Positions 29,713 to 52,481 of a stretch of DNA of 64,000 nt are shown piece by piece (within the stretch, counting starts at the first letter, position 1; every line of letters starts with the position of its first letter). Below the pieces are notes generated by a model. It searched no databases. It was not told the origin of the DNA and saw only the letters and a list, made by a program, of their open reading frames with translations. The translations under genes were made by a program, and so were the position numbers. This DNA is from Chitinophaga pinensis (GTDB lineage Bacteria > Bacteroidota > Bacteroidia > NS11-12g > UBA955): NCBI GenBank assembly GCA_945890895.1, contig CAMDDG010000009.1, forward strand, positions 306-64,305, read 5' to 3'.

Positions 29713-29731
29713 TTTTCAAATATACACAAGT

Positions 29732-36324: not shown

Positions 36325-37020
36325 ATGACAATCAGTTCACAAAAGCCAAACACTAAAACCGAGTTACTGAGTGAATATATTCGGGAAGATTTTATTGTTT
36401 TGCGAACTGAGGATTTTCTAACGGAAGAAGCGCGAAGCGAAGTGCAAAAAAACTATTCCAATTACGTCAAGCATGAGGGAATATCAAAGTGTCAAATTGG
36501 ATTGCCCTATTTGGTGTTGAACAAGCGCTTTGAAGCAGGCGAATGGCTTGGTTCATTTCTGAGTGGAATACCTTGCGAAACCCAGGTGTTTTACTATTTG
36601 GAATTAAGCAATTCGGTAAAACCGAGTAAATGGTTGCAACAATTTCCTGAGCTAATCGATTGTAAAGAAATTTACGTTCGGGGAAGCAAAAATGCGGATT
36701 GGAATGATTTCCTGAACTGTATTTGGGATTTTAATAAAAATAATACTCAAGTTTTCCTTTTAAATTCCAATTGTATTTTAGAGCACCCGAAGTCGCACAA
36801 GATTATACAATCCTTGGTATTTAGAGGAGTTACATTGGGCTTTCATGGTGATTTTCCGACAAGTTGGTGGCAATCCAAAAACCGATTTTTAAAGATGTTT
36901 GCTGAATGGGATGTTCTGGATTTTTGGCAAACCAAACATTTTAATTTGGATTCAAAAGAATTTGCGGAAGAGAAAGAATATAAGATAAAGTACTTCAAAA
37001 TCTCAAGAGTGCAGTCCTAA
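36325..37020 (+). CDS. hypothetical cytoplasmic protein
   Basis: 231-aa ORF with its own terminator. I recognise no motif in it. Confidence 0.55.
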   Translation: MTISSQKPNTKTELLSEYIREDFIVLRTEDFLTEEARSEVQKNYSNYVKHEGISKCQIGLPYLVLNKRFEAGEWLGSFLSGIPCETQVFYYLELSNSVKPSKWLQQFPELIDCKEIYVRGSKNADWNDFLNCIWDFNKNNTQVFLLNSNCILEHPKSHKIIQSLVFRGVTLGFHGDFPTSWWQSKNRFLKMFAEWDVLDFWQTKHFNLDSKEFAEEKEYKIKYFKISRVQS

Positions 37021-37242: not shown

Positions 37243-39105
37243 GTGAAATTTTTAGAAAGAATTACATCGCTGAAACCTTTATATCAGCGTGTTTTAGTGG
37301 CGCTTGGATTAATTTGGAAACACAGTAGGATTCGAGTAATTTCTTCCACTCTATACATTATTTTGGGTGGAGCATTGACGTTATTGTCAGCCTATTATTT
37401 TAGAAAAGCACTACTTTCACTTAATGAAATTTCTCAATTTAAAAATTTCTGGGAAAGTGGGTCATTCAAGTATCTAGCCATAGCCAGTGCCGTTACTTTA
37501 TTTTCTGGTGTTTGGAGGCTTGTTTATGAATATTTTTCAGAAATTCATGGCTTTGCGTTTTCTACATTTATACAAGACAGTATCAACGAGAAAGTAATTA
37601 AACTTAAGATGTCCTTTTTGGAAAGTCCAGGATATCATAATCTTTTGGAGAGAGCTAAATTTACGGGTTCTTCTAAAATTGATGGAATATTTTTCTCTTT
37701 GGTAACTTTGATTAATTCGTTAATTTCTATACTGATTTTTTCAACATTCATTTACATGATCAGTTGGCAAATTGTTCTATTGATTATTGTATTCAATATT
37801 CCATTAATACTTACCAATTCACATTTCACCAAGAAGATGTTTGAGCTGCGTAAGGAACAAACTCCAATTGAAAGAAAGGCCAATTATTTCGGTGGAATAA
37901 TTATGGATATTTCCATAGCAAAAGAAATAAAAACCTTTCATATTGGTCACTATTTTCTCGACCGATTCAAAGTACTTCGCGATCAGTTGTTTCGCCAAAG
38001 AATGAAACTCGTTGTACGTGAGAAAAGGATGCGGATTTTTACATTGTTAACCACTAATGTGGTTTGGTTTATTGCCGTAATTGTCATCTTTAGATTAATC
38101 AGTAAGGGACTCATTCCTTTGGTGGATTTAACCTTCATGATGACGATGATTCTACAACTAATACAAAAAGGGAAAGAATTGAGTGGATCGATTAATGGTT
38201 TGTACCATTGTTCTTTGGAAGTTGCGTATGTATTGGATTTTTTTGAATTAAAAGATGAAATTGAGAGTGATCATGATGAGGAATTTCCTGATTTATTTCC
38301 TGCAACTGTTGAGGATCAAAGTATCGATTCAGATATTTCAGCTAAAGAGATTTTGGTTAAAAACGTATCTTTTGCATACAGCAATTCAAATACAAATTTT
38401 TCCTTAAAAAATGTGAGTTTGGTTATTCCTAAGGGTAAGATCGTTGCTTTGGTGGGTTTAAACGGAACAGGAAAAACCACTTTAATAAAATTATTGGCTC
38501 GAATGTATGAACCCACTTCGGGTGAAATATTTATTGGAGCTACCCCCATCAAGAATATCCCCCGAAAAAAATATCATAAACATATTTCCTTCATCTTTCA
38601 AGACTATGCTAAATACCATTTAACCATAGAAGAAAATATAGCCATTGGTGATTTAGAAAAGTATAAAAACGATAAGAATATCCAAAGATATGCTCAACAA
38701 TCTGGAGCTCATGGATTTATCGAAAAGTTGCCAGATAACTACACAAGTTTGTTGGGTAGAATGTTCGATGAAGGGATTGATATCAGTATAGGACAATGGC
38801 AGAAAGTGGCTATTGCTCGTTCCTTGTATAAGGATACGTCTTTTATAGTAATGGATGAGCCTACAAGCGCCATGGATGCGGTTGCAGAGAAAACGTTCTT
38901 TCAAGAATTTAAGAGTGCTATCGGTGAGCGAGGTGCTTTATTGGTTAGCCATAGAATGTCTGCGGTGCAATATGCAGATTATATTTATGTTTTGAATGAA
39001 GGTGAGTTAGAAGAAGAAGGTACTCACAGCAGCTTATTGGAAAAACAAGGGCTTTATTATTGGATTTTCAAGAGTGGCGAGAAGTTAGGGAATTTGGATA
39101 GGTAA
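37243..39105 (+). CDS. ABC exporter, fused permease + ATPase (type I exporter fold)
   Basis: 620 aa with about six N-terminal TM helices. Walker A is GLNGTGKTT, the signature variant is ISIGQWQKVAIARSL and Walker B is FIVMDEPTSAMD. The start is GTG. There is no C39 peptidase domain. Confidence 0.85.
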   Translation: MKFLERITSLKPLYQRVLVALGLIWKHSRIRVISSTLYIILGGALTLLSAYYFRKALLSLNEISQFKNFWESGSFKYLAIASAVTLFSGVWRLVYEYFSEIHGFAFSTFIQDSINEKVIKLKMSFLESPGYHNLLERAKFTGSSKIDGIFFSLVTLINSLISILIFSTFIYMISWQIVLLIIVFNIPLILTNSHFTKKMFELRKEQTPIERKANYFGGIIMDISIAKEIKTFHIGHYFLDRFKVLRDQLFRQRMKLVVREKRMRIFTLLTTNVVWFIAVIVIFRLISKGLIPLVDLTFMMTMILQLIQKGKELSGSINGLYHCSLEVAYVLDFFELKDEIESDHDEEFPDLFPATVEDQSIDSDISAKEILVKNVSFAYSNSNTNFSLKNVSLVIPKGKIVALVGLNGTGKTTLIKLLARMYEPTSGEIFIGATPIKNIPRKKYHKHISFIFQDYAKYHLTIEENIAIGDLEKYKNDKNIQRYAQQSGAHGFIEKLPDNYTSLLGRMFDEGIDISIGQWQKVAIARSLYKDTSFIVMDEPTSAMDAVAEKTFFQEFKSAIGERGALLVSHRMSAVQYADYIYVLNEGELEEEGTHSSLLEKQGLYYWIFKSGEKLGNLDR

Positions 39106-39114
39106 TTGAATCAA

Positions 39115-40101
39115 ATGTCGAACAAAAATTATCCATTAGTTTCCGTAATCATTCCCACATTCAATAGAGGGTTTGTTGTTTTCAAAAGTATTGAGTCGGT
39201 ACTTAATCAAAGCTATAAAAACATTCAGTGTATTGTAGTTGATGATGGTTCGACCGATGATACTGTAATAAAAATTCAGCCCTATTTGGATCGAATTGAA
39301 TATTATTATCAACCCAATCAGGGACAAGGATCCGCCAGAAATTTAGGATTAAGCTATGCTAAGGGAGAGTTTATTGCTACATTGGATTCCGATGACGAAT
39401 GGTTTCCAGACTTTATTTCCAACCATTTAGAGCAGATGTTAAAGCATGATTTGACACTTACTTTTTCGAACTACGATGTGAATAATTCGGAGCACGGAAG
39501 GATGAGTCAAATACAAAGAATGAAGCCGTATTTGGATCCCAATAATATAAATCAATGGCATATCATTGAGGGTGGAGTTTTTCGCGATTTGATTTTGCCC
39601 GGTGTAATAATACCTTCTTCTGGTGTTTTAAAAAGACGTTCAGCCCTTGCCTATGGCTGGGACACACAAGTTAAAATAGCAGATGATTGGATGTTGCAGT
39701 TGGAAATAGCGATGATTCAACCCATTAAAGCTGGTTTCACATTTGAAAAGAACTGGAAAAAAGGTCATTTTGGGGATAATATTTCTTTGTCTGACTTATC
39801 AGAAAGTAAACGATTAGGGAAACATTTCAGAGATGTTTATTCTGATCTTTTGTATGTGATTAAAGTGTTTGGAGGACGGTTGAATGGTAGTGAAAAATCG
39901 CTATTGAAAAGGAAATTGGTCAACTTTAAATTGGAATGGTTGATATGGAGAATTAAAAAAAGAAAACCCCTATTATTTGGATTTCCCGAATTTTACTCAC
40001 AGCTTTCCGTAGCTGCAGTTTGTTACTTATTCTATGTTTTAATTCGTAGATTTTTTCAAATTATTTTAAAAAAGAGAATCAAATTAAAAGTTTCAAAATG
40101 A
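39115..40101 (+). CDS. family 2 glycosyltransferase (copy a)
   Basis: VSVIIPTFNRGFVVFKSIESVLNQSYKNIQCIVVDDGSTDDT and LDSDDEW are present. It is a close paralog of 43959-44960. Confidence 0.85.
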   Translation: MSNKNYPLVSVIIPTFNRGFVVFKSIESVLNQSYKNIQCIVVDDGSTDDTVIKIQPYLDRIEYYYQPNQGQGSARNLGLSYAKGEFIATLDSDDEWFPDFISNHLEQMLKHDLTLTFSNYDVNNSEHGRMSQIQRMKPYLDPNNINQWHIIEGGVFRDLILPGVIIPSSGVLKRRSALAYGWDTQVKIADDWMLQLEIAMIQPIKAGFTFEKNWKKGHFGDNISLSDLSESKRLGKHFRDVYSDLLYVIKVFGGRLNGSEKSLLKRKLVNFKLEWLIWRIKKRKPLLFGFPEFYSQLSVAAVCYLFYVLIRRFFQIILKKRIKLKVSK

Positions 40102-41333
40102 AAATTTGGCGGCTAATTATTTTGTGTTTTTTGTTTGTATCTAGTGGATCTTACTCACAGAGTTTTGTCTTTGGGGAAAAGAAGTACATTTCAAATCCCG
40201 GAATATCTATATTTCCGTATTTCCCGGATGGTCATATTTCGTATGGTAAATTGGATGAGAATCGTTTCTATAAAATATGGGCGGGATCAACTTCATACAT
40301 AACGGTTGGAAACTCCTATTTTAACCAAGATTCAATTTGGGGTCAAGGATTGAAAAGGGGGGATTCTGCCGATTTTGATAATGGTGGAGCTTGGTTGTAT
40401 TCCGTATTTATCTTGGATTCCAATTATTGGTTGGGTTTTTACCATGCAGAAGACCACTTATTTCCAGGATTTGCGAATCGTGAACAAATTGCCTGGAAAT
40501 CGATAGCGCAGTGCGTTAGTTTTGACCGGGGTCGAACATGGGAAAAGCGTGGCCAAATTATTACAACTGATCAAATTAAACCCAACAAACCTACTTGGGG
40601 TGGCCATGCCGATTTTACAGTAGTCAGAGACAGTCAGAATAAGCGTTGGATTGCATATTTTGTGGTTCCAGAAGGATTGGGTATGGCTATTTCGGAGGAT
40701 TCTTTTGCTCGAGCTGGGACATGGAAAAAACACTACAACGGATCGTTTACAGAACCGGGTATTGGAGGGATGGCAAGTGCTTTAAATTTTTCAAAGGATT
40801 TTAGAAGGGGAGGAAACCCCTCTATCATTTACTCAAAAAAGAGGAATAAATGGATTATGGTTTACCATGATTGGAATTTGCGGGGTATATATCTTACTAC
40901 ATCCATGGATTTAATGAATTGGGATTTTCCCATTTTATTGGTGGAGAACAATTCTTCAATAGGTAAAATTTGGTACCCCAATTTGGTTGGTGAAAACAGT
41001 GATATGCATTCGGATTCAATTTTATGGCTATCCTATGCGGAGTTTCCGAATAATGCAAAACCGGAAAGAAAGTACATTACTCGTAAGTTGATTTATGTTG
41101 ATGAAAATTCCAAAAATCAAGTATTTGTAAATCGAATGTTGCTTGTAGACTCATCTATAGTCACTATTAAAATTTACAGTTCTAACGGTCTTTTGACGGA
41201 AACTTGGTACGACAAAATTCACCTCGGTCCTGGTGAATATGATTTCCCTTGGAAGGAGTTTAAGAGAACGGGAGTTTTTATTTTAAGTACAGAGATTAAT
41301 CAAGAAAAGAAAACCTTTAAAGTAGTACGGTAA
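40098..41333 (+). CDS. secreted protein with a BNR/Asp-box, probably a beta-propeller, possibly T9SS-sorted
   Basis: The signal peptide is MKIWRLIILCFLFVSSGSYSQ and the Asp-box is SFDRGRTW. The C-terminal approximately 60 aa (VTIKIYSSNG...GVFILSTEINQEKKTFKVVR) resemble a T9SS sorting domain. Confidence 0.55.
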   Translation: MKIWRLIILCFLFVSSGSYSQSFVFGEKKYISNPGISIFPYFPDGHISYGKLDENRFYKIWAGSTSYITVGNSYFNQDSIWGQGLKRGDSADFDNGGAWLYSVFILDSNYWLGFYHAEDHLFPGFANREQIAWKSIAQCVSFDRGRTWEKRGQIITTDQIKPNKPTWGGHADFTVVRDSQNKRWIAYFVVPEGLGMAISEDSFARAGTWKKHYNGSFTEPGIGGMASALNFSKDFRRGGNPSIIYSKKRNKWIMVYHDWNLRGIYLTTSMDLMNWDFPILLVENNSSIGKIWYPNLVGENSDMHSDSILWLSYAEFPNNAKPERKYITRKLIYVDENSKNQVFVNRMLLVDSSIVTIKIYSSNGLLTETWYDKIHLGPGEYDFPWKEFKRTGVFILSTEINQEKKTFKVVR

Positions 41334-41410
41334 TTGATTAAAATGGACAACACACATAAACCCAGTTATAAAATTTACGTTCATAAGTTTCATCCGTTAA
41401 CAAATAGAGT

Positions 41411-42607
41411 ATGATTACGGATTTTCCCAATTTAGAATCAATTGAAAATCCACCTTCCAAAAAAAGGATTTTTATTGTCACTTCAATTTTTGAAGATTTT
41501 GGAGGCTCAGAAACGATTTGGTACGATTTAGTGAAACAGTTGTCACTTGAAAAATATCAATTATTTTTTTTAAAATCCAATATCAATCGAAGGCACTCAG
41601 TTTTCAAGGAACTCTCTAATCGGGGAGTACTATTAGTGGAATTAGAACCCAATTTAGGTTACAAGGATGGTCAAAAAATCAAGTCAAAACTCAACCATAA
41701 GGCAGCTAATTTTTGCATCCATATTGAAGTGTACAAACCGGATTTAGTAATTATCAACCAAGGAATTAACTTTGATGGTTTGGATGTTGCTCGTTTTTGT
41801 ATTGAACAGAATTTTAAATACATAACGATTTCAAACAAAGCAGTAAATTTCTTTTGGCCTTACCCCGAAAGTCGAAATGATTTCAAAGAGTATTTTATCA
41901 AATCTCAAGCTAATTATTTTGTTTCTAATCACAATTATCAACTAACGTGTGAGCAATTTGGAATGAAAATTCCCCATTTTCAAAGAGCTATCTATCCAGT
42001 ACAAAAACATAAGGAAATTAAACCCATGCCAACATTGAACAATGGGGTGAAATTTGCATTGGTGGGTCGATTGTTTTTAATGGACAAGGGTCATGATATG
42101 TTGTTTCGAATTTTGAATAAACCCGTTTGGAGAAATAGGAATTTCAAGGTATCCATCATTGGTGCTGGTTCCGATGAAGTAGCATTAAAAGAATTTGTTC
42201 GATATTTAGCCTTGGATTCCGTTGAGTTCTTGGGATATAAGAGTAATCAAACCCTTTGGGATGATTTTCATGGACTGCTTTTGCCCTCCAGAAGCGAGGG
42301 ATTTCCTTTGGTGGTGCAAGAGGCCATGGCGGCTGGACGTATTGTGGTTACCACGTATTCAGGTGGCAGTGATGAAATTATTATCGATGGTAAGAATGGA
42401 TTTATAAGTGAAATAGACCAAGACGAATTTGAATTTGCCATGGAACGTTGTTGGGCGGCGCAAAAAAACTGGATAGAAATTGCCCAAAATGCATACTCCT
42501 CAATAAATAATTTCTTACCAGATAATCCAACTGAAAACATCCTAACTCAAATTGAAGAACTCACTTTTGGATCTAAAAATATTCCAGAAAGCACACTATT
42601 GAAGTAA
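41411..42607 (+). CDS. GT4 (Glycos_transf_1) glycosyltransferase (copy a)
   Basis: LLLPSRSEGFPLVVQEAMAAGRIVVTTYSGGSDEIIIDGKNGFI is the EX7E region. It is a paralog of 42839-43969. Confidence 0.85.
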   Translation: MITDFPNLESIENPPSKKRIFIVTSIFEDFGGSETIWYDLVKQLSLEKYQLFFLKSNINRRHSVFKELSNRGVLLVELEPNLGYKDGQKIKSKLNHKAANFCIHIEVYKPDLVIINQGINFDGLDVARFCIEQNFKYITISNKAVNFFWPYPESRNDFKEYFIKSQANYFVSNHNYQLTCEQFGMKIPHFQRAIYPVQKHKEIKPMPTLNNGVKFALVGRLFLMDKGHDMLFRILNKPVWRNRNFKVSIIGAGSDEVALKEFVRYLALDSVEFLGYKSNQTLWDDFHGLLLPSRSEGFPLVVQEAMAAGRIVVTTYSGGSDEIIIDGKNGFISEIDQDEFEFAMERCWAAQKNWIEIAQNAYSSINNFLPDNPTENILTQIEELTFGSKNIPESTLLK

Positions 42608-42838
42608 TTAAATTTCGTACAATTTGAAATGCAAATAACGATGGTATTGATATGCAATTAAATTCTACGAGGATTAAATAATTGGCGTAGCCATTCAACT
42701 TTGGCGTCGCGATTAAATGAAATGTTACATTTTGTTATACATACAATAACCCAGAGAATCCTTTCTTTTGCATTACTCAAACAGGTGGAACATTAAGGCA
42801 TCCAATGAAATCAAATCAATCATCTAGTTAAAAGAACA

Positions 42839-43969
42839 GTGGTACAAGTGAAACGAAGAATTTTTATCTTTTCGAGTATTGAAGACGATTTTGGTGGATC
42901 CGAAATTTTGTGGTTTGATTTAGCCAAAAATTACTTGAGAAATCAGTATCAAGTATTTGTGTTGAAGCGGAAAGTGAATCGGTCTCATTCATTTATTCAA
43001 GAACTTCAAAAACTGGATATTCATATAATCGAATTGTCACCAGATTTGGGCAAAGATGAATTTGGTGATCGCATAATGAACGATCTAAATAGTGCTATTA
43101 AAAACTTTTGTATTCATTTGAGAGTGTATGATCCCGATTTGGTTATAGTTAACCAAGGGGTGAATTTCGATGGTTTGGAGTTTGCAAATAGTTGTAGAGA
43201 TCTGGATTATCCGTATTTCATAATTTCCCATAAAGCAATAGAAATTTTATGGCCTTATGAAGGAGATCGTGAAGTATATTCTAAAGTTTGGCAGAAATCT
43301 CGAGCTAATTTCTTTGTTTCTGATATCAATCATGAACATACCTCGGAACAATTTGGATTTACCATCCCACGCGCGCAACGCGCCTATAATCCCATAAAAA
43401 GATACAGCGAAATTCAACAATTGCCTGATTTCAGTGTTATTCGTTTTGCCTGTATCGGGCGGTTGTATCTGTTTGATAAAGGACAAGATATGTTGTTGAG
43501 AATTCTATCCAAATCCATTTGGCGCGAAAGAAATTTCAAAGTATTTATAGTTGGAACGGGTCCAGATGAAATAGCCCTTAAAGAGTTAGCGCAATATTAT
43601 GAACTTGAAAATGTAGAATTCTTAGGTCATTTGAATAACGAAACCATTTGGGATAATTTCCACGGATTGTTGCTGCCTTCGAGAAATGAAGGGTTTCCAT
43701 TGGTGGTGCAAGAAGCTATGGCGGCTTCTCGAATTGTGGTTGCAACCACAGCCGGTGGAAGTCAAGAAATCATCGAGGATGGTAAAAACGGATTCATCAG
43801 TAAGTGTTTTCAAAATGATTTTGAGTCAGCAATGGAACGGTGTTGGAAAAGTCAAAAGGATTGGCATCAAATTGCCCAAAATGCGTTTCAAACAATTGAC
43901 CATTATTTACCTTCTCAACCCAATTCCAATATTCTTGAATTAATCTCCCAGATCTTGAATGAAAAATAA
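42839..43969 (+). CDS. GT4 (Glycos_transf_1) glycosyltransferase (copy b)
   Basis: LLLPSRNEGFPLVVQEAMAASRIVVATTAGGSQEIIEDGKNGFI is present. It is collinear with copy a over the full length, with roughly half the residues identical by eye. The start is GTG. Confidence 0.85.
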   Translation: MVQVKRRIFIFSSIEDDFGGSEILWFDLAKNYLRNQYQVFVLKRKVNRSHSFIQELQKLDIHIIELSPDLGKDEFGDRIMNDLNSAIKNFCIHLRVYDPDLVIVNQGVNFDGLEFANSCRDLDYPYFIISHKAIEILWPYEGDREVYSKVWQKSRANFFVSDINHEHTSEQFGFTIPRAQRAYNPIKRYSEIQQLPDFSVIRFACIGRLYLFDKGQDMLLRILSKSIWRERNFKVFIVGTGPDEIALKELAQYYELENVEFLGHLNNETIWDNFHGLLLPSRNEGFPLVVQEAMAASRIVVATTAGGSQEIIEDGKNGFISKCFQNDFESAMERCWKSQKDWHQIAQNAFQTIDHYLPSQPNSNILELISQILNEK

Positions 43970-44960
43970 TCCTTTAATAACGGTAATCATCCCCACTTAC
44001 AACAGAGCTTATGTTTTGCCTATGGCAATCAATTCGGTGCTGGCTCAAGACTATGACAACGTGCAGTTGATTATTGCTGATGACGGTTCTAAAGACAATA
44101 CCCGTGAGATAGTTGAATCCTTTCATAATCCTAAAATTGAGTATTATTTTCAGGAAAATCAAGGGCAAGGAGCAGCAAGAAACTTGGGATTGCAGCACGC
44201 TCGAGGTGAATTCATTGCCACTTTAGATTCTGATGATTTATGGTATCCAACATTTTTGAGCGAGCAAATTAACGAGCTCATCGCTCATGATTTGGATTTC
44301 ACATTTGTAAATTATTGGCACGAACAAAAAGGATCTGATTTGATTTCTCAGCTTAATCATCATTCGGTTACCATGCACTATTTTGATGAGAATAATCCAC
44401 ACAAATGGATCCATTTAGACAATGTTGCTGCCCGTAAAATGTTCGTAACCGCTTGCGCATGTCCAAGCTCTGGTTTAGTAATTAGAAAGGAGTCAATGAA
44501 GGGGACCTGGAACAGCAAAATGAAAATTGCCGATGATTGGAATTTGCAGTTAGATATTTTATTAAACAAAGAATGTAAAGTAGCTTTCAATTTTAAGCAA
44601 CTTTGGTTTAAGCGAATCGACATGAATAATGTTTACGATTCGCGTCCTGCGGATCAAGTATTCTATTTGTTTGGTGTGTTGGATTATATTCATATCATTC
44701 GATTATATCGAGGAAAGTTGACCAAGAAGGAGAAGAATGTTCTCATTCATAGACATCTTAGATATTTGAATTCACTGTTATTTGTGCATCTTCAAAGGAG
44801 AAATCCGGTGGGTGTGACAAAGTTTGTTTGGATTGGGTTGAAGCATTGGCCACATAAATTCGTGCCCATGTTTACCCGTATGTTAGCATCATCCGGGAAG
44901 CGAATGGTTAAGCAGAGGTTAAATTCTAAAAAGCAGAAATCCCAATTATCTTTAAGTTAA
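43959..44960 (+). CDS. family 2 glycosyltransferase (copy b)
   Basis: ITVIIPTYNRAYVLPMAINSVLAQDYDNVQLIIADDGSKDNT and LDSDDLW are present. It overlaps the GT4b stop by 11 nt. Confidence 0.85.
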   Translation: MKNNPLITVIIPTYNRAYVLPMAINSVLAQDYDNVQLIIADDGSKDNTREIVESFHNPKIEYYFQENQGQGAARNLGLQHARGEFIATLDSDDLWYPTFLSEQINELIAHDLDFTFVNYWHEQKGSDLISQLNHHSVTMHYFDENNPHKWIHLDNVAARKMFVTACACPSSGLVIRKESMKGTWNSKMKIADDWNLQLDILLNKECKVAFNFKQLWFKRIDMNNVYDSRPADQVFYLFGVLDYIHIIRLYRGKLTKKEKNVLIHRHLRYLNSLLFVHLQRRNPVGVTKFVWIGLKHWPHKFVPMFTRMLASSGKRMVKQRLNSKKQKSQLSLS

Positions 44961-44965
44961 ACATA

Positions 44966-46009
44966 ATGAATGGATTGTTAAAAATTGCGCGATTTTCAAG
45001 TTGGTGGTATTATAAAATACCGCTTTTTGTTGTTGTGCTTTTTATAACGCACGTTGGTGAAGCCAAATTTTCAGATTTGAGTATAGGGTCTGTTTTTAAA
45101 GCGCTGTTTCTCATGGTAGTTGGTGCAACGTTTGTTTCCATTTTGAATGATTTTACCGACAGAGAAGTTGATTTAATGGCCAACAAGAACAATAATTTTA
45201 GTCGGTTCAGTTCAACTCAATCCGCCCTCATTATGGCCATTACTTTGGGTGTATGTGCCTTGATGCCATGGATACTTCGGTTAAATGTAAATGCCTTTTG
45301 GACGTATTTTTCGGCCATTACGTCGTATATTTTATATTCAGTGAAGCCCTTGAGATTTAAAGATCGAGGATTTTGGGGGATGGTTTTTGATTCGTTGGGT
45401 TCCGTTGTTTTTCCAATGGGGAGTTTCTTATTTACGTCCATTCCAAATTGGTCGGAAAGCATATCATTAGTTACTCAAATTATCCTGTTTTTATGGTTGT
45501 TTTTTTTGGCAATGCGTTCCATTTTGGTTCACCAAGTTGAAGATAAGTTGAACGACATGAATTCTGGTACGAATACGTTTGTAACTCGATTCTCCGAGAA
45601 AATGGTGAATCGTATTGGCCTTTTCATGTTCGTTTTTGAGATAGCCTCATTCTTAGGGTTGTGCTTCACATTGAAATTGTATGCTAGCCCGTGGTTTGTA
45701 TTTTTCTTTTTGTTCTATTTGGGGACACAATGGTTGTTTAAGCGAATTATTTGGATGAAATTTTCTCTTTTCGGTAAAATGAATGAAAGTTCCATAGTTT
45801 TCATGTATGATTATTACTATTCTTACTTGTTGATGGGCTTGATTTTTATGATGGGTATTCCCTTGATTTGGAAATTCGGGTTATTGGTTGCAATAGTTAT
45901 TCTGTTTCCCGTGTATTTCAAGCAGCAATTTAATTGTTTAAAAACATTGTTTTTGCGTTTAACAGTATACCGACATAAAGAACATATACCGCCTTCCGAA
46001 CCCGAATAA
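44966..46009 (+). CDS. UbiA-superfamily membrane prenyltransferase
   Basis: Polytopic 347-aa protein. The first Asp-rich motif is NDFTDREVD (NDxxDxxxD) and the second is DKLND (DxxxD). Confidence 0.75.
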   Translation: MNGLLKIARFSSWWYYKIPLFVVVLFITHVGEAKFSDLSIGSVFKALFLMVVGATFVSILNDFTDREVDLMANKNNNFSRFSSTQSALIMAITLGVCALMPWILRLNVNAFWTYFSAITSYILYSVKPLRFKDRGFWGMVFDSLGSVVFPMGSFLFTSIPNWSESISLVTQIILFLWLFFLAMRSILVHQVEDKLNDMNSGTNTFVTRFSEKMVNRIGLFMFVFEIASFLGLCFTLKLYASPWFVFFFLFYLGTQWLFKRIIWMKFSLFGKMNESSIVFMYDYYYSYLLMGLIFMMGIPLIWKFGLLVAIVILFPVYFKQQFNCLKTLFLRLTVYRHKEHIPPSEPE

Positions 46010-46040
46010 AAAAGTTAGAACGTTTCACTAGATATAGATA

Positions 46041-47129
46041 ATGGGTATAGATTTAGCTGTCAAAAAAGCACTCCAATTTATTAAATCTGAGCAACAGGAA
46101 TCCGGGATTTTTTTTTCCGTTGCTGGAGAGTCTTTGAATTGTACCAATGAACTTTTAGAGGATTTCAGTGATGGCGAATCGAAAGCTTGGACCTACTTGG
46201 ATCAATATTCTGTATTTCCAACCTTATTAATAGGAAATGCTTTAAAACATATAAAGTCGGGCAATGAGTCTGAAGTAGTGCTAAGTCGAATTGATGATTT
46301 TCTCCTGCGGGAGCGTCATAAGTTATTTTGGGTTTGGAATCATTTTGTTCCGAATCATCGATTGTATAAAATGAATCCCTATGACATCGATTCTACCGTG
46401 GTAGCTTTGGATTATTTACAGGATCGTGGGAAACTTCCCCCAAAATCTAAGCAAAGAGCCTTGAATTTACTAATGGATCAAATCAATGAACATGGATTGT
46501 TTTTTACGTTTTATACGTTCAGGGGAAGTCTGAATTGTTCATGTAGGAGTTGGATTTTGTTTTTGAGGGAATTGAGAGCGCCGTTATCTACAAGAGTTTT
46601 TTGGAAAATAGTGGAAGCGGATAGAAGGGATGTAGATGGTGTGGTGAATATCAATGTTCTCCACTATTTAGGGAGATTTGCGGGCAGCGACAAAGTGATT
46701 AAATATTTGCGACAGAAGTTGATGGAAGGAAACGAATTGCAATTTGACAAGTGGTATAAAACGACTTCAGTGGTTTACTATTTTGGTAGTCGTTTGAACC
46801 ATCAAAAATACGCAGAATTGGAAGTCGTGTTTTTACGCTGGAAAGAGGAGTTAATACGAATGGTTCGATCTCAAGAGTTGAGTCAATTGCACGATTTGGA
46901 TTTAGCGTTGATGGCAGTGTCCATGATTAATTTGGATTTGGATCAGAAGTATGTATCGCCATGCATAGAGCGATTGTTGGAAGTTCAACAGAGTACCGGA
47001 AACTGGAAAAAGAAGGCCTTCTATTTTGGAGGACCAAAAAAAATCATGGGGTGGGGTTCTGACGCCTTAACTACAGCAGTTTGTATTGAGGCATTAACTA
47101 AGTATGGAAATAAATTTGGAATAAATTAA
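46041..47129 (+). CDS. prenyltransferase/squalene-oxidase (QW) repeat protein, alpha/alpha-toroid fold
   Basis: 362 aa. QW-type motifs are EQQESGIF near the N-terminus and QQSTGNW near the C-terminus. Confidence 0.5.
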   Translation: MGIDLAVKKALQFIKSEQQESGIFFSVAGESLNCTNELLEDFSDGESKAWTYLDQYSVFPTLLIGNALKHIKSGNESEVVLSRIDDFLLRERHKLFWVWNHFVPNHRLYKMNPYDIDSTVVALDYLQDRGKLPPKSKQRALNLLMDQINEHGLFFTFYTFRGSLNCSCRSWILFLRELRAPLSTRVFWKIVEADRRDVDGVVNINVLHYLGRFAGSDKVIKYLRQKLMEGNELQFDKWYKTTSVVYYFGSRLNHQKYAELEVVFLRWKEELIRMVRSQELSQLHDLDLALMAVSMINLDLDQKYVSPCIERLLEVQQSTGNWKKKAFYFGGPKKIMGWGSDALTTAVCIEALTKYGNKFGIN

Positions 47130-47156
47130 CTATTCAAATACACAGATTCTGATAAT

Positions 47157-47492
47157 ATGTACAGCTACTTTATTAATTCTTACCTTGGTTTTATCGTTTA
47201 TTTTATCGTTCTCCCTTTATTATTAATTAAATGGTTTTCGTTTATAAGTTCCATAAAAACTGGACAAATTATCTGGTTTTTTCTAGGACTTTTATTTATC
47301 CTATTTCTAAATGATTATAAATTGGACTATGCTTATGCGTTTAAGCCAATCGCATTTATAATTGTTTGGAGGTTTATAAAGTCAAAGGGAAAATCAGAAA
47401 ATCCAACATCCATTTCCATAGCTAGCAATTTTTTTGGATTTGGACAATTGATTGGTTTAATTGCCGTTGTATTTCTACTGGCTTTTAACTGA
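47157..47492 (+). CDS. small integral membrane protein
   Basis: 111 aa with three hydrophobic helices. Its end overlaps the convergent 47485 gene by 8 nt. Confidence 0.5.
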   Translation: MYSYFINSYLGFIVYFIVLPLLLIKWFSFISSIKTGQIIWFFLGLLFILFLNDYKLDYAYAFKPIAFIIVWRFIKSKGKSENPTSISIASNFFGFGQLIGLIAVVFLLAFN

Positions 47493-47934
47493 TATTATTG
47501 TTTTTTAAATTCAATAAACTCGTTTTATCTGATCTAATATACGCATGATAAACATAGGCCATGATAAATCCTAATGGAGAAACGGTTGCCTTTAAAAAAG
47601 TGCGATAGATGGCCAATAACGTGGGGGAATCCAATACGGTAAAACGAATCAATCCAGAGATAAATACGGTAGATTCAAAAAAGAAATACAATTGAGTTAA
47701 ATATTTTTTTAACTGATGTTGTTCGGTTAATATACAATAGGTATAGGCTAAAAAATAGTAAAGTAATCCAAAAATAAACCGAAACGTAAATTTTAATATT
47801 GGATGAGAGAAAAAGTCACTATTGATTAGGATATAGGCCCTATACCAAAGAAAACCTAAGCATAAAGAGGCAATTACATAACCGATGAAATAAAGACTAT
47901 GATCGGAGATTTGTTTGTTCAGAAGTGTTTTCAT
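47485..47934 (-). CDS. exosortase F system-associated membrane protein (candidate)
   Basis: 150 aa from MKTLLNKQISDHSLYFIGYVIASLCLGF, with about four TM helices. It lies immediately after, and overlaps by 38 nt, the XrtF-like gene. This is the arrangement described for XrtF. Confidence 0.6.
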   Translation of the reverse strand: MKTLLNKQISDHSLYFIGYVIASLCLGFLWYRAYILINSDFFSHPILKFTFRFIFGLLYYFLAYTYCILTEQHQLKKYLTQLYFFFESTVFISGLIRFTVLDSPTLLAIYRTFLKATVSPLGFIMAYVYHAYIRSDKTSLLNLKNNNIS

Positions 47935-48478
47935 GTGTTTTAATAAATTTTCTAATAAGTAAAAATATAAGTACGTATATGATGGTTTGGAAAAAGTAAA
48001 TATGCAAAAAATTGTACCAATCTGGATTGAATTTAAGCACATAACTGAGTGCAACAATTCTTAACACATTGTATTCATGCAGAATCAATAAGCCAATCAA
48101 TAAGAATAAAAACTTCCTTTTTAAATTCTTATTGGGAAAAATGAAAATGAAGGAAGCGTATAAAAAGAGAAGGGATTTACCTGCACACCCTTCCGCAACT
48201 TTCACTAATGTTCCTTTGCAAACCAAAAAAAATCGAGCGTCAATTTCTGTTTTATATATTTTGGTTGCAACAAAGTCGGCATTCCCAAAGATATCCATTA
48301 GGAATAGGGTTTGACTCCTAATGGATAACATAATGAGTTCATCTATCTTGGGAAAATAATTTAAAATTAACCACAGTATCAATGCAATAAACGCTTTCAA
48401 CATGAACCAAAGTTCTTGTTGAGAGAATTTGAAATTTTTTAGAGATTGAAAGAAATTAAGATTCAAGTTGACCTTCAT
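47897..48478 (-). CDS. xrtF: exosortase family protein, XrtF-like
   Basis: 193-aa polytopic protein. The exosortase catalytic pattern is present: Cys in VAEGCAGKSLL, Arg in NVLRIVAL, and a downstream His in FLHIYFFQ. Its small size and Bacteroidota host fit XrtF. Confidence 0.75.
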   Translation of the reverse strand: MKVNLNLNFFQSLKNFKFSQQELWFMLKAFIALILWLILNYFPKIDELIMLSIRSQTLFLMDIFGNADFVATKIYKTEIDARFFLVCKGTLVKVAEGCAGKSLLFLYASFIFIFPNKNLKRKFLFLLIGLLILHEYNVLRIVALSYVLKFNPDWYNFLHIYFFQTIIYVLIFLLIRKFIKTHENTSEQTNLRS

Positions 48479-48812
48479 GCTTCTTGGATTTACGCACTTT
48501 GCTTATTCCATAGCCTAACAGTCCACCTGCAACCCAAATTAATCCTCCATCAATAGGAACCGAACCATTGCCACCGAATTCATTCGTATCAAATGTTTCA
48601 TCGTTTTCTCTATCTTCTATACCATCTTCAAAAAAACCATAATTTTCAAAAACGGGATCGTTATTAAAAATAGCTTCATCGTGATCATCGTAATCCGATT
48701 CTTCATTATATACTCCGTCAGACTCAAATGTTCCTTGAGCTTTCAATGGATTGATATAGATTGTTGAGATAAGTAAGCCTAAAGCAGTTACTACTAAATG
48801 TGATTTTTTCAT
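48456..48812 (-). CDS. small acidic secreted protein with a PEP-CTERM-like C-terminal sorting signal (VPIDGG + TM + KVRKSKK)
   Basis: 118 aa with signal peptide MKKSHLVVTALGLLISTIYINPLKAQ. About 65 residues are rich in D/E/N/F. The tail is NGSVPIDGGLIWVAGGLLGYGISKVRKSKKHEGQLES. Its stop overlaps the xrtF start by 23 nt, and its start overlaps the upstream stop by 4 nt. Confidence 0.7.
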   Translation of the reverse strand: MKKSHLVVTALGLLISTIYINPLKAQGTFESDGVYNEESDYDDHDEAIFNNDPVFENYGFFEDGIEDRENDETFDTNEFGGNGSVPIDGGLIWVAGGLLGYGISKVRKSKKHEGQLES

Positions 48813-50680
48813 GGATTTACAATTATTTTTTGAGAATGGATATTGGAGAAAGTATGAATATTTAAAATGTATATACCTGAATTTAAACTAGGTATTTGAA
48901 TGCTATTTGAATTCTGTGATTTGAATAAATTGGAAGTATGGAACAATTCAGAACCATTCAAATCCGTAATTGAAACATAATCAATCGGTTCTTTTTTGAA
49001 CGATTCTATGTGTAAAATCCCATTCTTATTGATTGGATTTGGATAAACTGATAAGCCTTCGCTTGCAGTTAATGATTTGTTGCTCAGTACAGTTGAATTA
49101 TTTTTGAAATAAATTTCAAAACGATTATCGTTCTTCAGTTGAGAAGCTTGATCTATGCTAAACGTATAAGAGTTAATATCAATACGAGTTTCAGATTTTA
49201 GTTTCTTGTCTTTTAACCAAACTTCAGTGCCTTGCTCAAGAGAAGCGATTGCATCGTATCGAAACGTAAACGAACCTGTGTTCTTCGCAAAAAACGACAA
49301 TGGGAATGTTTTAGTTAGATACTGACTGATAGAATCTGGATAGCTGGATACGGCAAGTTTGTAATTGTCTTTGCTGAATATCGCTAAGTTTACTACTTCT
49401 GAAGTTAAATCTTTTGAATCAAAATCAATATCGTAGTAATCGGTAGACTTTTTATCGTTTCCGAATAAGAAAACTACTTGATCTTCTTCTTTATCATTAG
49501 AACTATTGTTGATTAAAGTTACACCAAATCGGTTAGTGAAGGTGTCAACAGTGAAAAAATGGGGATTAGATGTTTGTGAGGAGGGTAAATCATCTACTTT
49601 AATACCTTCATTGAATTCAATTGAGGCATTGGTGTCAATTGCTTGCGCCAAAAAAGCACCGCCCATGGGTATAACATCGGTCATTTTACCTGTTGTTGCT
49701 CCGTTGTTTCGGTTGTATGAAATGTATGATTTATTTTTCTTGTCATACATGTAAATTGAACCACGAGTATTTTTCCACTTTTGGCTAGAAATACTACTAG
49801 CAGAAAGTTTAATATGGCTTGGATAAGGATTGGCAATCAAATTCCATCCCTCATTCGTGTTCTTAAGTTCGGTTATAATGGTTCCAAAACCAATTTTACC
49901 GCCTATTGAAATACGAGCTGCTTCTGGTAGAACGGCGCCCAAATCCAACAAGGGTTGACCTTTTCTGTTCTGTACATAAAACGCCGCTCCATAACCTATT
50001 TTAATTGAGTCAGAAGCATTGGTGTATCCTGTCCATTTGTTTGTAGCTTCATTATACCAAAAAGCGGATGGATTGTTGGTTATGGTATTCACAGAAAAAC
50101 CATTCGCCGTACCACCATTTCCAGTTACATCGAATTCCAATGTATCGTTGCAGAACTGCTTTAAGGTAAGTGTTGATCTGAATGGATTTCCAAAATAACG
50201 GAATGCATTATATCCTCTGGTTGTATAGAAAATAATTGAATCAGAGTTTGAAACAATTGGAGTAGAAGCAGAAGAAGTGATTTCATCAATTCTACCTGCA
50301 TATCCAACGGAGTCAGATTCGAGTTTTAAATTGTTGCTGGTAATTAATGCACCAGTTCCAGTTATTTTAATCGTACCGAAATCTGTACCGCCCTTTATGG
50401 TTAATTTGTCGGTTAAAGTAGTGCTTCCCCCATTGAATTCAATAATCCCTTTTAGTGATTGCCCATTGGCATCAAAGTTCTTTGCTGAAGATCCACCAAA
50501 ACGGATGGTTCCGTTGTTTTCGATGCCACCGTTGGGTATTTCTAAATTGTTTTCGGTGGTTAATATTCCTCCTGTTTCAATAAGAATTGTAGCACCGTTG
50601 TGGAATGTAAGCGTTTGAGCTTTTATACAGTAACTGCTAAAAGCAGTTACTGCAATAAGTAATAAATTCTTGTTTTTCAT
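48809..50680 (-). CDS. T9SS-sorted secreted protein of unknown function
   Basis: 623 aa with signal peptide MKNKNLLLIAVTAFSSYCIKAQ. The N-terminus is a G/T/N-rich beta-helix-like region. The C-terminal sorting domain is LSVYPNPINKNGILHIESF...GIYILNIHTFSNIHSQKIIVNP. Confidence 0.75.
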   Translation of the reverse strand: MKNKNLLLIAVTAFSSYCIKAQTLTFHNGATILIETGGILTTENNLEIPNGGIENNGTIRFGGSSAKNFDANGQSLKGIIEFNGGSTTLTDKLTIKGGTDFGTIKITGTGALITSNNLKLESDSVGYAGRIDEITSSASTPIVSNSDSIIFYTTRGYNAFRYFGNPFRSTLTLKQFCNDTLEFDVTGNGGTANGFSVNTITNNPSAFWYNEATNKWTGYTNASDSIKIGYGAAFYVQNRKGQPLLDLGAVLPEAARISIGGKIGFGTIITELKNTNEGWNLIANPYPSHIKLSASSISSQKWKNTRGSIYMYDKKNKSYISYNRNNGATTGKMTDVIPMGGAFLAQAIDTNASIEFNEGIKVDDLPSSQTSNPHFFTVDTFTNRFGVTLINNSSNDKEEDQVVFLFGNDKKSTDYYDIDFDSKDLTSEVVNLAIFSKDNYKLAVSSYPDSISQYLTKTFPLSFFAKNTGSFTFRYDAIASLEQGTEVWLKDKKLKSETRIDINSYTFSIDQASQLKNDNRFEIYFKNNSTVLSNKSLTASEGLSVYPNPINKNGILHIESFKKEPIDYVSITDLNGSELFHTSNLFKSQNSNSIQIPSLNSGIYILNIHTFSNIHSQKIIVNP

Positions 50681-50704: not shown

Positions 50705-51703
50705 TTATAATCCAAATGCAGTCATGGTTGCACTATAAACAGTAACGGTAGCCGCTTGTGATCCACTTCCGTCTCGTCCGATTACTCGTAAATCAATCCA
50801 ATCACCTGTACTCATCGATGTAATAGCGTTAACAGTAACTACTCGTTCTTCTGACGTGTTATTAAAGGAAATAGAAACGCTTGAGGGAATTAATACATTA
50901 TTTTTAAATAGCCCGAAAACAAACTCATCCATTCTGTTTCCATCTCTATTTACTCCTTTATAACTTATTGAATAAGAAATATTGAACATTTTTGTACTGC
51001 TCCCTTTGTAAGCAATGACACCTTCTCCGCTTCCTGAATTGTTATGATTAACCCTTGCTCCTAAAGTAGAAATAGAGTCAATTAAAGTATTGGTGCCAAA
51101 TGTTGCGCCTCTCGCAGGAAAATTTATAGAAACCCAATTTGTAGAGGATGTTGTTGAATTCCAATCGGTTGCGCTTGTGTTAGTAGTGACACCCGAATTG
51201 TTGTAGAAGCTTAATTGTGCCATAGGTACTACCAAACGACTATTCATAGTTACATCACCGTTCATGGTTGTAGCACCATTGAAAGTGGAGTTACCCGCCA
51301 TCGTAAGGTTGCCACTTAAAGTGGTGTTGCCAGAAACGGACAAGTTACCGCTGTATGAATTGGTACCTGAAAATGTATTATTTCCTGTGAAAGTGTTAAT
51401 ACCAGAAACTGTTTGGTTACGATTGTTGGTTCCTAATTCAGACCAACTGCCGTTTTCACGGATATTTAATTTTCCAGTTGTGGAATTGTAAATAATTAAA
51501 CCATTCTCGGGTGATGTAATAGCATCACGTTGACTGGTTGTCATTCTTGGAGGTAAAAATCCTTTGGTGCTGGAGTTTACTTCGAGAGCTGCTGAAGAAT
51601 TTACTGAACCTGAAACGCCAATTCCAATTTGACCATTCACTGTTCCGCCTAATAAACTAACAAATGCTACCGCAATTTGTATTTTAATGTTTTTGAATTT
51701 CAT
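50705..51703 (-). CDS. secreted tail-fibre-like protein: conserved N-terminal head, G/N/T/S repeat stalk, C-terminal C1q/TNF-like jelly-roll (tentative)
   Basis: The start is at MKFKNIKIQIAVAFVSLLGGTVNGQ. Then comes GFLPPRMTTSQRDAITSPENGLIIYNSTTGKLNIRENGSWSELG, followed by repeats FTGNNTFSGTNSYSGNLSVSGNTTLSGNLTMAGNSTFNGATTMNGDVTMN. The C-terminus is ...STGDWIDLRV...VTVYSATMTAFGL. Confidence 0.6.
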   Translation of the reverse strand: MKFKNIKIQIAVAFVSLLGGTVNGQIGIGVSGSVNSSAALEVNSSTKGFLPPRMTTSQRDAITSPENGLIIYNSTTGKLNIRENGSWSELGTNNRNQTVSGINTFTGNNTFSGTNSYSGNLSVSGNTTLSGNLTMAGNSTFNGATTMNGDVTMNSRLVVPMAQLSFYNNSGVTTNTSATDWNSTTSSTNWVSINFPARGATFGTNTLIDSISTLGARVNHNNSGSGEGVIAYKGSSTKMFNISYSISYKGVNRDGNRMDEFVFGLFKNNVLIPSSVSISFNNTSEERVVTVNAITSMSTGDWIDLRVIGRDGSGSQAATVTVYSATMTAFGL

Positions 51704-52442: not shown

Positions 52443-52477
52443 ATATAAAAAAAATCCTCCCGTAAAGAGAGGATTTT
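52443..52477 (-). terminator. terminator hairpin downstream of the tRNA
   Basis: The hairpin aaaatcctc-ccgtaaaga-gaggatttt is followed by a T-run on the minus strand. Confidence 0.6.
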
Positions 52478-52481
52478 TTAG

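What the first reader, a model, noticed from the sequence alone, without database searches (positions are those of the whole stretch)
47485..48812. XrtF-type exosortase with its partner protein and a translationally coupled candidate substrate carrying a VPIDGG-TM-KVRKSKK tail
The gene at 47897-48478 has the exosortase catalytic pattern: Cys in VAEGCAG, Arg in NVLRI, and a downstream His. It is followed, with a 38-nt overlap, by a 150-aa four-TM protein. This is the pairing described for the Bacteroidota-specific XrtF and its obligate partner. To my knowledge, the original exosortase/archaeosortase survey listed XrtF without a recognised cognate sorting signal. I cannot check whether newer family models have since defined one.

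The ORF directly upstream (48456-48812) overlaps the xrtF start by 23 nt. It encodes the following:
- a signal peptide;
- an approximately 65-residue, extremely acidic D/E/N/F-rich region;
- the tail ...NGSVPIDGG-LIWVAGGLLGYGI-SKVRKSKK...

The tail is a short Pro-containing motif, a Gly-rich TM helix and a basic cluster. That is the architecture of PEP-CTERM signals, with VPEP replaced by VPID. This would be a dedicated substrate encoded in cis.
Basis: partly seen in the sequence, partly recalled or inferred. Interest (0 to 1): 0.8.

Follow-up and report, generated by a model that had tools for sequence, protein, structure and literature searches.

The report
Divergent XrtX-like exosortase with PID-CTERM cargo
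This is a real, conserved operon for a membrane protein-sorting enzyme (an exosortase) and its own small acidic substrate. The enzyme is not XrtF, and the "new" VPIDGG sorting tail is a divergent form of the PID-CTERM/XrtX system already catalogued in NCBIfam and Pfam, so it is a new branch of a known kind rather than a new signal.

Summary
All three ORFs exist as described. The exosortase has the Cys/Arg/His triad, which is invariant in every relative aligned. The small ORF is under strong purifying selection (dN/dS 0.03-0.19). It sits directly upstream of the exosortase in every relative that has upstream DNA.

The interpretation needs correcting in three ways:
- **Not XrtF.** The enzyme fails the XrtF model (63.7 bits, cutoff 90). 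Its best specific hit is XrtX (78.5 bits, cutoff 170). It branches outside XrtX+XrtF.
- **The tail is not new.** It is a sub-threshold match, in register, to NCBIfam NF046080 PID_CTERM (13.4 bits, cutoff 26). That signal is also in Pfam as PF28310.
- **The layout is the known XrtX layout.** Canonical XrtX loci show the same order: often a T9SS-tailed protein, then a small PID-CTERM protein, then XrtX, then a small membrane partner.

What is new:
- This is a rare, deep-branching clade: two clusters among 1.84 billion representatives, and none found in GTDB species genomes.
- All three components fall below the curated cutoffs.
- The cargo is a ~59-residue, highly acidic domain, not the usual ~20-residue Pro-rich CWPPPC peptide.

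Processing itself is inferred, not shown.

The parts
47897..48478 (-). Exosortase-family transpeptidase (193 aa). XrtX-like, but below both the XrtX and XrtF cutoffs. Catalytic residues are C98, R140 (with N137) and H159.
   Evidence: Model scores are TIGR04178 48/23 (pass), NF046081 XrtX 78.5/170 (fail) and TIGR04128 XrtF 63.7/90 (fail). The triad is invariant in 143-150 relatives. dN/dS is 0.08-0.10.
48456..48812 (-). Small secreted acidic protein (118 aa). It has a signal-peptide-like N-terminus, a 59-aa D/E/N/F-rich region with the conserved block AIFNNDPVFENYGFFED, and a PID-CTERM-like tail, VPIDGG-TM-KVRKSKK (residues 85-111). It is the candidate dedicated substrate.
   Evidence: NF046080 PID_CTERM scores 13.4 bits (cutoff 26), with residues 85-108 matching model positions 1-24/25. 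PIDGG and GGxxGYG are invariant. dN/dS is 0.03-0.19. It lies upstream of the exosortase in all relatives.
47485..47934 (-). Clade-specific four-helix membrane protein (149 aa). It occupies the position of the XrtX-associated membrane protein. Conserved motifs are RFIFGLxYYxLAY and TVSPL.
   Evidence: It has no NCBIfam or Pfam hit, even at E 10. It is conserved in all clade members. hhalign against canonical XrtX partners is inconclusive (probability 6.9%, E 0.005, SPL aligned with SPL). The AlphaFold model has pLDDT 74.6 and four long helices.
48809..50680 (-). 623-aa secreted protein with a T9SS type A C-terminal sorting domain. Its stop overlaps the small ORF start (ATGA). It is a conserved first or second gene of the cassette.
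   Evidence: TIGR04183 scores 44.9/23 and PF18962 scores 39.3/27. The same gene lies upstream in L004, L006, L009, L092-L096. It is homologous beyond the CTD to the T9SS proteins that precede the PID-CTERM gene in canonical XrtX loci (blastp, L024 E 6e-13 over residues 2-621).
50705..51703 (-). 332-aa PTL_trimer-like protein, 24 nt upstream of the T9SS gene. It is probably the first gene of the operon.
   Evidence: The precomputed Pfam hit is PF26696. The same neighbour is present in L092, L093, L094 and L096. A strong terminator at 52449-52479 follows tRNA-Met and lies upstream of this gene. No terminator-like site separates the cassette genes; the only other minus-strand match (50744-50756, 5 pairs) lies inside the end of the PTL_trimer-like gene.
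37243..47492 (+). Convergent glycan biosynthesis/export cluster: an MsbA/PglK-like ABC transporter, two GT2, two GT4, a 411-aa unknown, a UbiA prenyltransferase, a 362-aa unknown and a 111-aa TM protein. It is adjacent to the cassette but is not an obligate part of it.
   Evidence: Searches give the annotations. The cluster is present next to the cassette in the window and in L003, but absent in L006 and L010, where the flanking genes are otherwise syntenic.

Best explanation
The locus is a dedicated, single-substrate exosortase system of the XrtX/PID-CTERM type, carried by a rare, deep-branching lineage of an uncultured Bacteroidota bacterium.

**Gene order.** The operon reads: PTL_trimer-like protein, T9SS-tailed 623-aa protein, small acidic PID-tail protein, exosortase, four-helix membrane partner.

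**Proposed mechanism (inferred by analogy with exosortase, archaeosortase and rhombosortase systems; not shown here).**
1. The 118-aa protein is exported by Sec and its signal peptide is removed.
2. It stays tethered in the inner membrane by the Gly-rich C-terminal helix. The KVRKSKK cluster lies in the cytoplasm and the VPIDGG motif lies at the periplasmic face.
3. The exosortase Cys98, assisted by Arg140 and His159, attacks at the PIDGG motif and removes the helix and basic tail.
4. The ~60-residue, highly acidic product is released or transferred to an acceptor. That acceptor could be a lipid, or a glycan made by the neighbouring GT/ABC cluster.
5. The downstream four-helix protein acts as an obligate accessory subunit, as the XrtX- and XrtF-associated proteins are thought to.
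6. The co-transcribed T9SS cargo protein probably acts together with the processed peptide at the cell surface.
For: **Enzyme family and catalytic residues**
- It passes the exosortase/archaeosortase signature, and the triad is invariant.
- The nearest named family is XrtX. Of the 150 best relatives, 127 hit XrtX at about 87 bits or more and 35 are XrtF.

**Tail**
- It aligns in register with NF046080 PID_CTERM in the window and in all homologues, at 13-23 bits.
- It is the top-ranked tail among 763 ORFs against a canonical-tail HMM.

**Canonical XrtX loci show the same layout**
- In Pontibacter harenae, the scores are PID_CTERM 46.3/26, then XrtX 203/170, then assoc_w_XrtX 135/75.
- L019 has a T9SS-CTD protein, then PID_CTERM, then XrtX.
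- 39 of 80 XrtX loci have the small PID protein directly upstream.
- 13 of those 39 have a large same-strand upstream protein with a T9SS-like C-terminal end. Seven of these were scanned against Pfam: 6 match the CTD model (4 above its cutoff) and 1 (L016) has no hit.
- Several of these upstream proteins are homologous to the window's 623-aa protein.

**Conservation within the clade**
- The cassette is conserved in about 10 distinct lineages.
- The small ORF is under purifying selection.
- There is only one PID-like tail per locus.
Against: - All three specific models fail their curated cutoffs: XrtX 78.5/170, PID_CTERM 13.4/26, and assoc_w_XrtX with no hit.
- The enzyme clade falls outside XrtX+XrtF. 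In the NJ tree, XrtX+XrtF has 79% bootstrap support excluding the window clade. hhalign scores are 142 against XrtX and 137.5 against XrtF, while XrtX against XrtF scores 215.
- The cargo domain is unlike canonical cargo: acidic, 59 aa and without Cys, against Pro-rich, about 20 aa and carrying CWPPPC.
- No cleavage, attachment or expression data exist for this system. I found no paper on XrtX or PID-CTERM in the searchable library.
- Genome-wide substrate counts could not be made.
Confidence: 0.8

Rival explanations
1. It is a true XrtF system, and the upstream ORF is the long-sought XrtF substrate.
For: XrtF is Bacteroidota-specific, is paired with a small membrane partner, and has no known target (PMC12188702, PMC10936215). 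Profile-profile similarity to XrtF (137.5) is nearly as high as to XrtX (142).
Against: TIGR04128 scores 63.7 bits against a cutoff of 90, while true XrtF representatives score 140-182. The partner has no hit to any NCBIfam model, including the XrtF-associated one. XrtF forms a 100%-bootstrap clade that excludes the window clade. The tail and gene order match the XrtX system.
Confidence: 0.04
2. It is a separate, third exosortase subfamily (neither XrtX nor XrtF) that recognises a PID-type signal. It would deserve its own family model, with an acidic cargo class and its own partner family.
For: All three curated XrtX-system cutoffs fail. Only 2 clusters reach E<=1e-30 among 1.84 billion representatives, then scores drop to 92 bits. 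The clade has 92% bootstrap support and sits outside XrtX+XrtF. XrtX and XrtF are closer to each other than either is to this clade. The partner family is clade-specific, and the cargo is different.
Against: This differs from the best explanation mainly in naming. Gene order, tail register and the homologous T9SS neighbour all point to common descent with the XrtX cassette. The NJ tree is rooted on XrtM-like sequences, and its deep nodes are weakly supported (18-59%).
Confidence: 0.45
3. The small protein is only a C-tail-anchored periplasmic protein or an accessory factor of the T9SS cargo. It is not cleaved by the exosortase, whose real substrates lie elsewhere in the genome.
For: No processing data exist. 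The PID_CTERM match is sub-threshold. 41 of 80 canonical XrtX loci lack an adjacent PID gene, so XrtX substrates can be encoded elsewhere.
Against: The PIDGG motif is invariant, while the linker just before it varies. The small ORF is strictly adjacent to the exosortase in every clade member. The same arrangement is seen with above-threshold PID_CTERM proteins next to XrtX.
Confidence: 0.1

Closest known systems
XrtX / PID-CTERM / XrtX-associated membrane protein system (NCBIfam NF046081, NF046080, NF046082; Pfam PF28310)
   Same: - The gene order matches: small signal-peptide protein with a [VI]P[IVL]DGG-TM-basic tail, then a ~175-190 aa exosortase, then a ~145-175 aa multi-helix membrane protein.
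- The tail aligns in register with the PID_CTERM model.
- XrtX is the best-scoring specific exosortase model.
- A homologous T9SS-CTD protein often lies just upstream.
- The phylum is Bacteroidota.
- There is one PID tail per locus.
   Different: - All three curated cutoffs fail: 78.5/170, 13.4/26 and no hit.
- The enzyme clade branches outside XrtX+XrtF.
- The cargo is a 59-aa acidic, Cys-free domain with a conserved NDPxFENYGFFED block, not a ~20-aa Pro-rich peptide with CWPPPC.
- The TM helix is W-V-x-G-G-L-x-G-Y-G rather than L-L-I-A-A-G-A-x-Y-G.
- The partner is not detectably homologous.
XrtF and exosortase F system-associated protein (TIGR04128/TIGR04127; F. johnsoniae Fjoh_1448/1449)
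   Same: Both are small Bacteroidota exosortases with a downstream small membrane partner. Profile-profile similarity is clear (hhalign E 4.6e-22). XrtF mutants share phenotypes with T9SS mutants (PMC10936215), and this cassette contains a T9SS cargo gene.
   Different: The window protein fails the XrtF cutoff (63.7/90), and the partner does not hit the XrtF-associated model. XrtF has no known sorting signal or cis-encoded substrate (PMC12188702), whereas this system has one.
PEP-CTERM / XrtA (EpsH) exosortase systems
   Same: Both have a tripartite signal (short Pro-containing motif, TM helix, basic cluster) and the Cys/Arg/His catalytic pattern. Both are associated with polysaccharide loci (own knowledge: Haft et al. 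2006, 2012).
   Different: The motif is PIDGG, not PEP. The enzyme is much shorter (193 aa, and only a weak PF09721 hit at 22.8/25.7). There is a single cis-encoded substrate rather than dozens of PEP-CTERM proteins.

Membership tests
Exosortase/archaeosortase superfamily (TIGR04178 signature) | Signature HMM above its cutoff (23 bits) | tested here: met
   48 bits.
Exosortase/archaeosortase superfamily (TIGR04178 signature) | Conserved catalytic Cys, Arg and His in transmembrane context | tested here: met
   C98, R140 and H159 (plus N137) are invariant in 143/143 and 150/150 aligned relatives.
XrtF (TIGR04128) | HMM score of at least 90 bits | tested here: not met
   63.7 bits. True XrtF representatives score 140-182 bits.
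XrtF (TIGR04128) | Adjacent exosortase F system-associated membrane protein (TIGR04127) | tested here: not met
   The downstream 149-aa protein has no NCBIfam hit at E<=10.
XrtX (NF046081) | HMM score of at least 170 bits | tested here: not met
   78.5 bits. This is the best specific model but is far below the cutoff. Canonical loci score 172-203 bits.
XrtX (NF046081) | Cognate PID-CTERM substrate (NF046080, at least 26 bits), typically encoded directly upstream | tested here: inconclusive
   The upstream ORF matches model positions 1-24/25 in register, but at 13.4 bits (E 0.054). Homologues score 13-23 bits. The PIDGG motif is invariant.
XrtX (NF046081) | Downstream XrtX-associated membrane protein (NF046082, at least 75 bits) | tested here: not met
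   There is no HMM hit. hhalign against 16 canonical partners gives probability 6.9% and E 0.005. The protein has the same position and similar size, and the AlphaFold model shows four long helices.
XrtX (NF046081) | Phylogenetic placement within the XrtX clade | tested here: not met
   In the NJ tree with 100 bootstraps, XrtX has 89% support and XrtX+XrtF has 79% support excluding the window clade. hhalign scores are 142 against XrtX and 137.5 against XrtF, with XrtX-XrtF at 215.
PEP-CTERM/XrtA | PEP motif in the substrate tail and an EpsH-type exosortase above the Pfam gathering score | tested here: not met
   The tail motif is PIDGG. PF09721 scores 22.8 against 25.7.
Any exosortase system | Exosortase-dependent cleavage of the C-terminal signal | not testable with these tools
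   This needs proteomics or genetics.

The most novel reading that the evidence does not exclude
The clade is a third, early-branching lineage of small Bacteroidota exosortases, lying outside XrtX+XrtF, that already uses a PID-type signal and a cis-encoded cargo. PID-type recognition, and perhaps coupling to a T9SS-secreted partner protein, would then predate the XrtX/XrtF split. That would give a concrete search image for the still-unknown XrtF substrates. It would also suggest that these sortase-processed peptides work together with T9SS cargo at the cell surface.
Probability: 0.25. Interest if true: 0.65.

Novelty: new variant of a known kind. Interest (0 to 1): 0.4.

Why it matters
Exosortase biology in Bacteroidota is almost untouched experimentally. 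XrtF matters for biofilm formation and surface colonisation, but its targets are unknown. XrtX/PID-CTERM exists only as database models; I found no paper on it in the searchable library.

This locus shows three things:
- The PID-type signal extends to a divergent enzyme lineage that current curated models miss.
- The cargo can be a folded-size acidic domain rather than a ~20-residue Pro-rich peptide.
- A homologous T9SS-secreted protein recurs in the same operon in both divergent and canonical systems.

That gives a compact five-gene cassette in which one enzyme, one substrate and one motif could be tested directly. It also argues for widening the NCBIfam and Pfam models. It does not solve the XrtF substrate problem.

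Tried and rejected
- **GTDB scan for the window clade.** A scan of species genomes with the window-clade exosortase alignment found no relatives. The organism could therefore not be named beyond Bacteroidota, an assignment that rests on the T9SS domains and on the neighbours of its relatives.
- **Accession look-up.** Paper searches for the contig and sample accessions found nothing.
- **Literature.** A search for PID-CTERM found nothing, and the XrtX hits listed were unrelated text.
- **First XrtX alignment.** The 32-sequence alignment A4 was too diverse for locus scanning and was replaced by A5.
- **Partner homology.**
  - A profile search with the partner found only clade-specific, unnamed proteins.
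  - hhalign against canonical XrtX partners was inconclusive.
  - The AlphaFold model of the partner gave no PDB fold match (E >= 1.9).
- **Exosortase structure.** The AlphaFold model had pLDDT 45 and was discarded. No solved exosortase structure was found by sequence.
- **Promoter scan.** The sigma-70 scan was uninformative: 20 sites against 25.5 expected, and Bacteroidota promoters are not covered.
- **Readings considered and rejected.**
  - An XrtF assignment fails on the HMM cutoffs and the tree.
  - A PEP-CTERM assignment fails on the motif.
  - A spurious-ORF reading fails on dN/dS and synteny.
  - The glycan cluster as an obligate part fails because it is absent in L006 and L010.
Full report
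**1. The observation**

- 48456-48812 (118 aa);
- 47897-48478 (193 aa);
- 47485-47934 (149 aa from the ATG).

The overlaps are 23 nt and 38 nt. Independent gene calls on identical metagenome contigs give the same genes.

A fourth gene belongs to the same block. It encodes a 623-aa protein with a T9SS type A C-terminal sorting domain (48809-50680; TIGR04183 44.9/23, PF18962 39.3/27). Its stop overlaps the small ORF's start in ATGA.

A fifth gene, encoding a PTL_trimer-like protein (50705-51703), lies 24 nt further upstream. The nearest strong terminator is upstream of it, after tRNA-Met (52449-52479).

**2. The enzyme**

The 193-aa protein passes the exosortase/archaeosortase signature (48 bits, cutoff 23). 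Cys98 (VAEGCAG), Asn137/Arg140 (NVLRI) and His159 are invariant in 143/143 and 150/150 aligned relatives.

It is not XrtF. TIGR04128 gives 63.7 bits against a cutoff of 90. Its best specific model is XrtX (NF046081), at 78.5 bits against a cutoff of 170.

The clade is rare:
- An exhaustive profile search of 1.84 billion cluster representatives found only two clusters at E<=1e-30. Scores then drop to 92 bits.
- Of the best 150 hits, 127 match XrtX at about 87 bits or more and 35 are XrtF.

The clade also sits apart from the named families:
- In an NJ tree with 100 bootstraps, XrtX has 89% support and XrtF has 100%.
- XrtX+XrtF has 79% support as a group that excludes the window clade. The window clade itself has 92% support.
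- Profile-profile scores agree: window clade against XrtX 142, against XrtF 137.5, and XrtX against XrtF 215.

The enzyme therefore belongs to a separate, rare lineage roughly equidistant from XrtX and XrtF.

**3. The small ORF is a real gene and carries a PID-CTERM-like tail**

Homologues of 32-96% identity keep four features:
- the signal-peptide-like N-terminus;
- a conserved acidic block (AIFNNDPxFENYGFFED);
- an invariant P-I-D-G-G;
- an invariant G-G-x-x-G-Y-G followed by a basic cluster.

dN/dS is 0.03-0.19, comparable with the exosortase at 0.08-0.10. The mature region is 59 aa, with 20 D/E and 1 K/R.

NCBIfam already holds a model for this kind of tail: NF046080 'PID-CTERM protein-sorting domain'.
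- It matches residues 85-108 to model positions 1-24 of 25, but at only 13.4 bits (cutoff 26).
- Homologues score 13-23 bits.
- Pfam PF28310 PID_CTERM is recorded on one homologue.

The tail is the only one of its kind in the window. Against an HMM built from 39 canonical tails, the top 9 of 763 ORFs were all copies of this gene.

**4. Synteny within the clade**

Every relative with enough DNA has the same order: T9SS protein, small PID protein, exosortase, ~140-aa membrane protein. This holds for L003-L010.

It also holds for all 7 loci fetched from metagenomes through the exosortase alone, wherever upstream DNA exists.

The glycan cluster at 37243-47492 is adjacent in the window and in L003. 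It is missing in L006 and L010, whose flanks are otherwise syntenic. It is therefore an insertion and not an obligate part.

**5. Comparison with canonical XrtX**

A scan of GTDB species genomes with a canonical XrtX alignment found at least 551 relatives, and 80 loci were fetched.

In 39 of the 80, a small protein lies directly upstream of XrtX. This protein has:
- a median length of 74 aa;
- a signal peptide;
- a Pro-rich stretch;
- CWPPPC or a similar motif;
- a [VI]P[IVL]D[GN]G-TM-KK tail.

A 156-176-aa membrane protein follows XrtX.

NCBIfam confirms the trio in Pontibacter harenae: PID_CTERM 46.3/26, XrtX 203/170 and assoc_w_XrtX 135/75. It also confirms a T9SS-CTD protein, then PID_CTERM, then XrtX in L019.

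The upstream neighbours in the 39 loci fall into two main groups:
- 13 of 39 have a large same-strand upstream protein with a T9SS-like C-terminal end. Seven of these were scanned against Pfam: 6 match the CTD model (4 above its cutoff) and L016 has no hit. Several are homologous to the window's 623-aa protein well beyond the CTD (L024 E 6e-13 over residues 2-621).
- About 20 of 39 instead face a divergent ~790-aa protein with a Tyr/Gly-rich C-terminus. The two scanned carry Wzz, GNVR and AAA_31 domains, as in Wzc-like tyrosine kinases.

The window's cassette is thus the XrtX architecture, with every component diverged.

**6. The partner**

The 149-aa protein is conserved in the clade. Its model shows four long helices, with pLDDT 74.6.

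It hits no NCBIfam or Pfam model. It aligns only weakly with canonical XrtX partners: hhalign probability 6.9%, with the invariant SPL motif aligned to theirs. Homology is possible but unproven.

**7. Mechanism (inferred)**

This rests on analogy with exosortase, archaeosortase and rhombosortase systems, from my own knowledge of Haft et al. 2012 and later work on ArtA and rhombosortase.
1. Sec exports the small protein, and the signal peptide is removed.
2. The C-terminal helix anchors the protein in the inner membrane.
3. Cys98 attacks at PIDGG and the TM-basic tail is removed.
4. The acidic ~60-aa product is released or transferred to an acceptor.

The partner and the T9SS protein are assigned accessory and co-functional roles from synteny only.

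**8. Literature**

- No paper mentions PID-CTERM, and the listed hits for the string XrtX were unrelated text.
- XrtF targets are 'not yet known' (PMC12188702).
- xrtF and its partner are needed for biofilm formation and surface colonisation in F. johnsoniae, with phenotypes like those of T9SS mutants (PMC10936215).

**9. Verdict**

It is wrong on the family, which is not XrtF, and on the novelty of the signal, because PID-CTERM is already catalogued with XrtX.

This is a new variant of a known kind. It is a rare, deep-branching XrtX-like lineage with a novel acidic cargo, and it is missed by current curated thresholds.

Noticed in passing
P0001 (metagenome homologue of window 47897-48478): A 94%-identical exosortase has Trp in place of the catalytic Cys (EGWAG). 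Another 94% copy (L091) keeps Cys. This is either a sequencing error or an inactivated allele.
   Followed up: partly
L009:1850-2394: The more distant cassette, whose small protein scores 22.9 bits on PID_CTERM, has an in-frame stop inside its exosortase gene (SSM*YQG). It may be a pseudogene or an assembly error.
   Followed up: no
window 50705-51703 (-); L006:4056-5970: A PTL_trimer-like (PF26696) gene precedes the T9SS gene in the window and in four relatives. L006 has three tandem paralogues on the other strand. Their function, and any link to the cassette, is unknown.
   Followed up: partly
window 37243-47492 (+): A glycan biosynthesis/export cluster (MsbA/PglK-like ABC transporter, GT2 x2, GT4 x2, UbiA prenyltransferase and three unknown proteins) is inserted here, next to the cassette, relative to the syntenic loci L006 and L010. 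Its last gene (111 aa) overlaps the partner gene's 3' end by 8 nt, in convergent orientation.
   Followed up: partly
L011-L090 (canonical XrtX loci): The canonical XrtX-adjacent cargo is tiny. After removal of the signal peptide and the PID-CTERM tail, only about 20 residues remain (Pro-rich, with a CWPPPC Cys pair). About half of these loci sit next to a divergent ~790-aa protein with a Tyr/Gly-rich C-terminus. The two I scanned look like Wzc-type tyrosine kinases. 41 of 80 XrtX loci, including the Balneolaceae and Vicingus loci, have no adjacent PID gene.
   Followed up: partly
L018:6538-12408 (-), L019:6929-12412 (-), L020:5319-10889 (-): Very large proteins (1827-1956 aa) downstream of canonical XrtX share the central domain (residues ~100-510) of the window's 623-aa T9SS protein. 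This suggests a surface-protein domain family that recurs around these sortase loci.
   Followed up: no
window 27727-37020: These genes are a 661-aa N-glycanase-like T9SS protein, a nitroreductase, a GyrI-like protein, a 710-aa LamG/T9SS protein, and 627-aa and 231-aa proteins without family hits here. Their counterparts in L006 and L010 include a TPR/HTH-like protein. There they lie directly next to the cassette, which shows conserved chromosomal synteny across the lineage.
   Followed up: no
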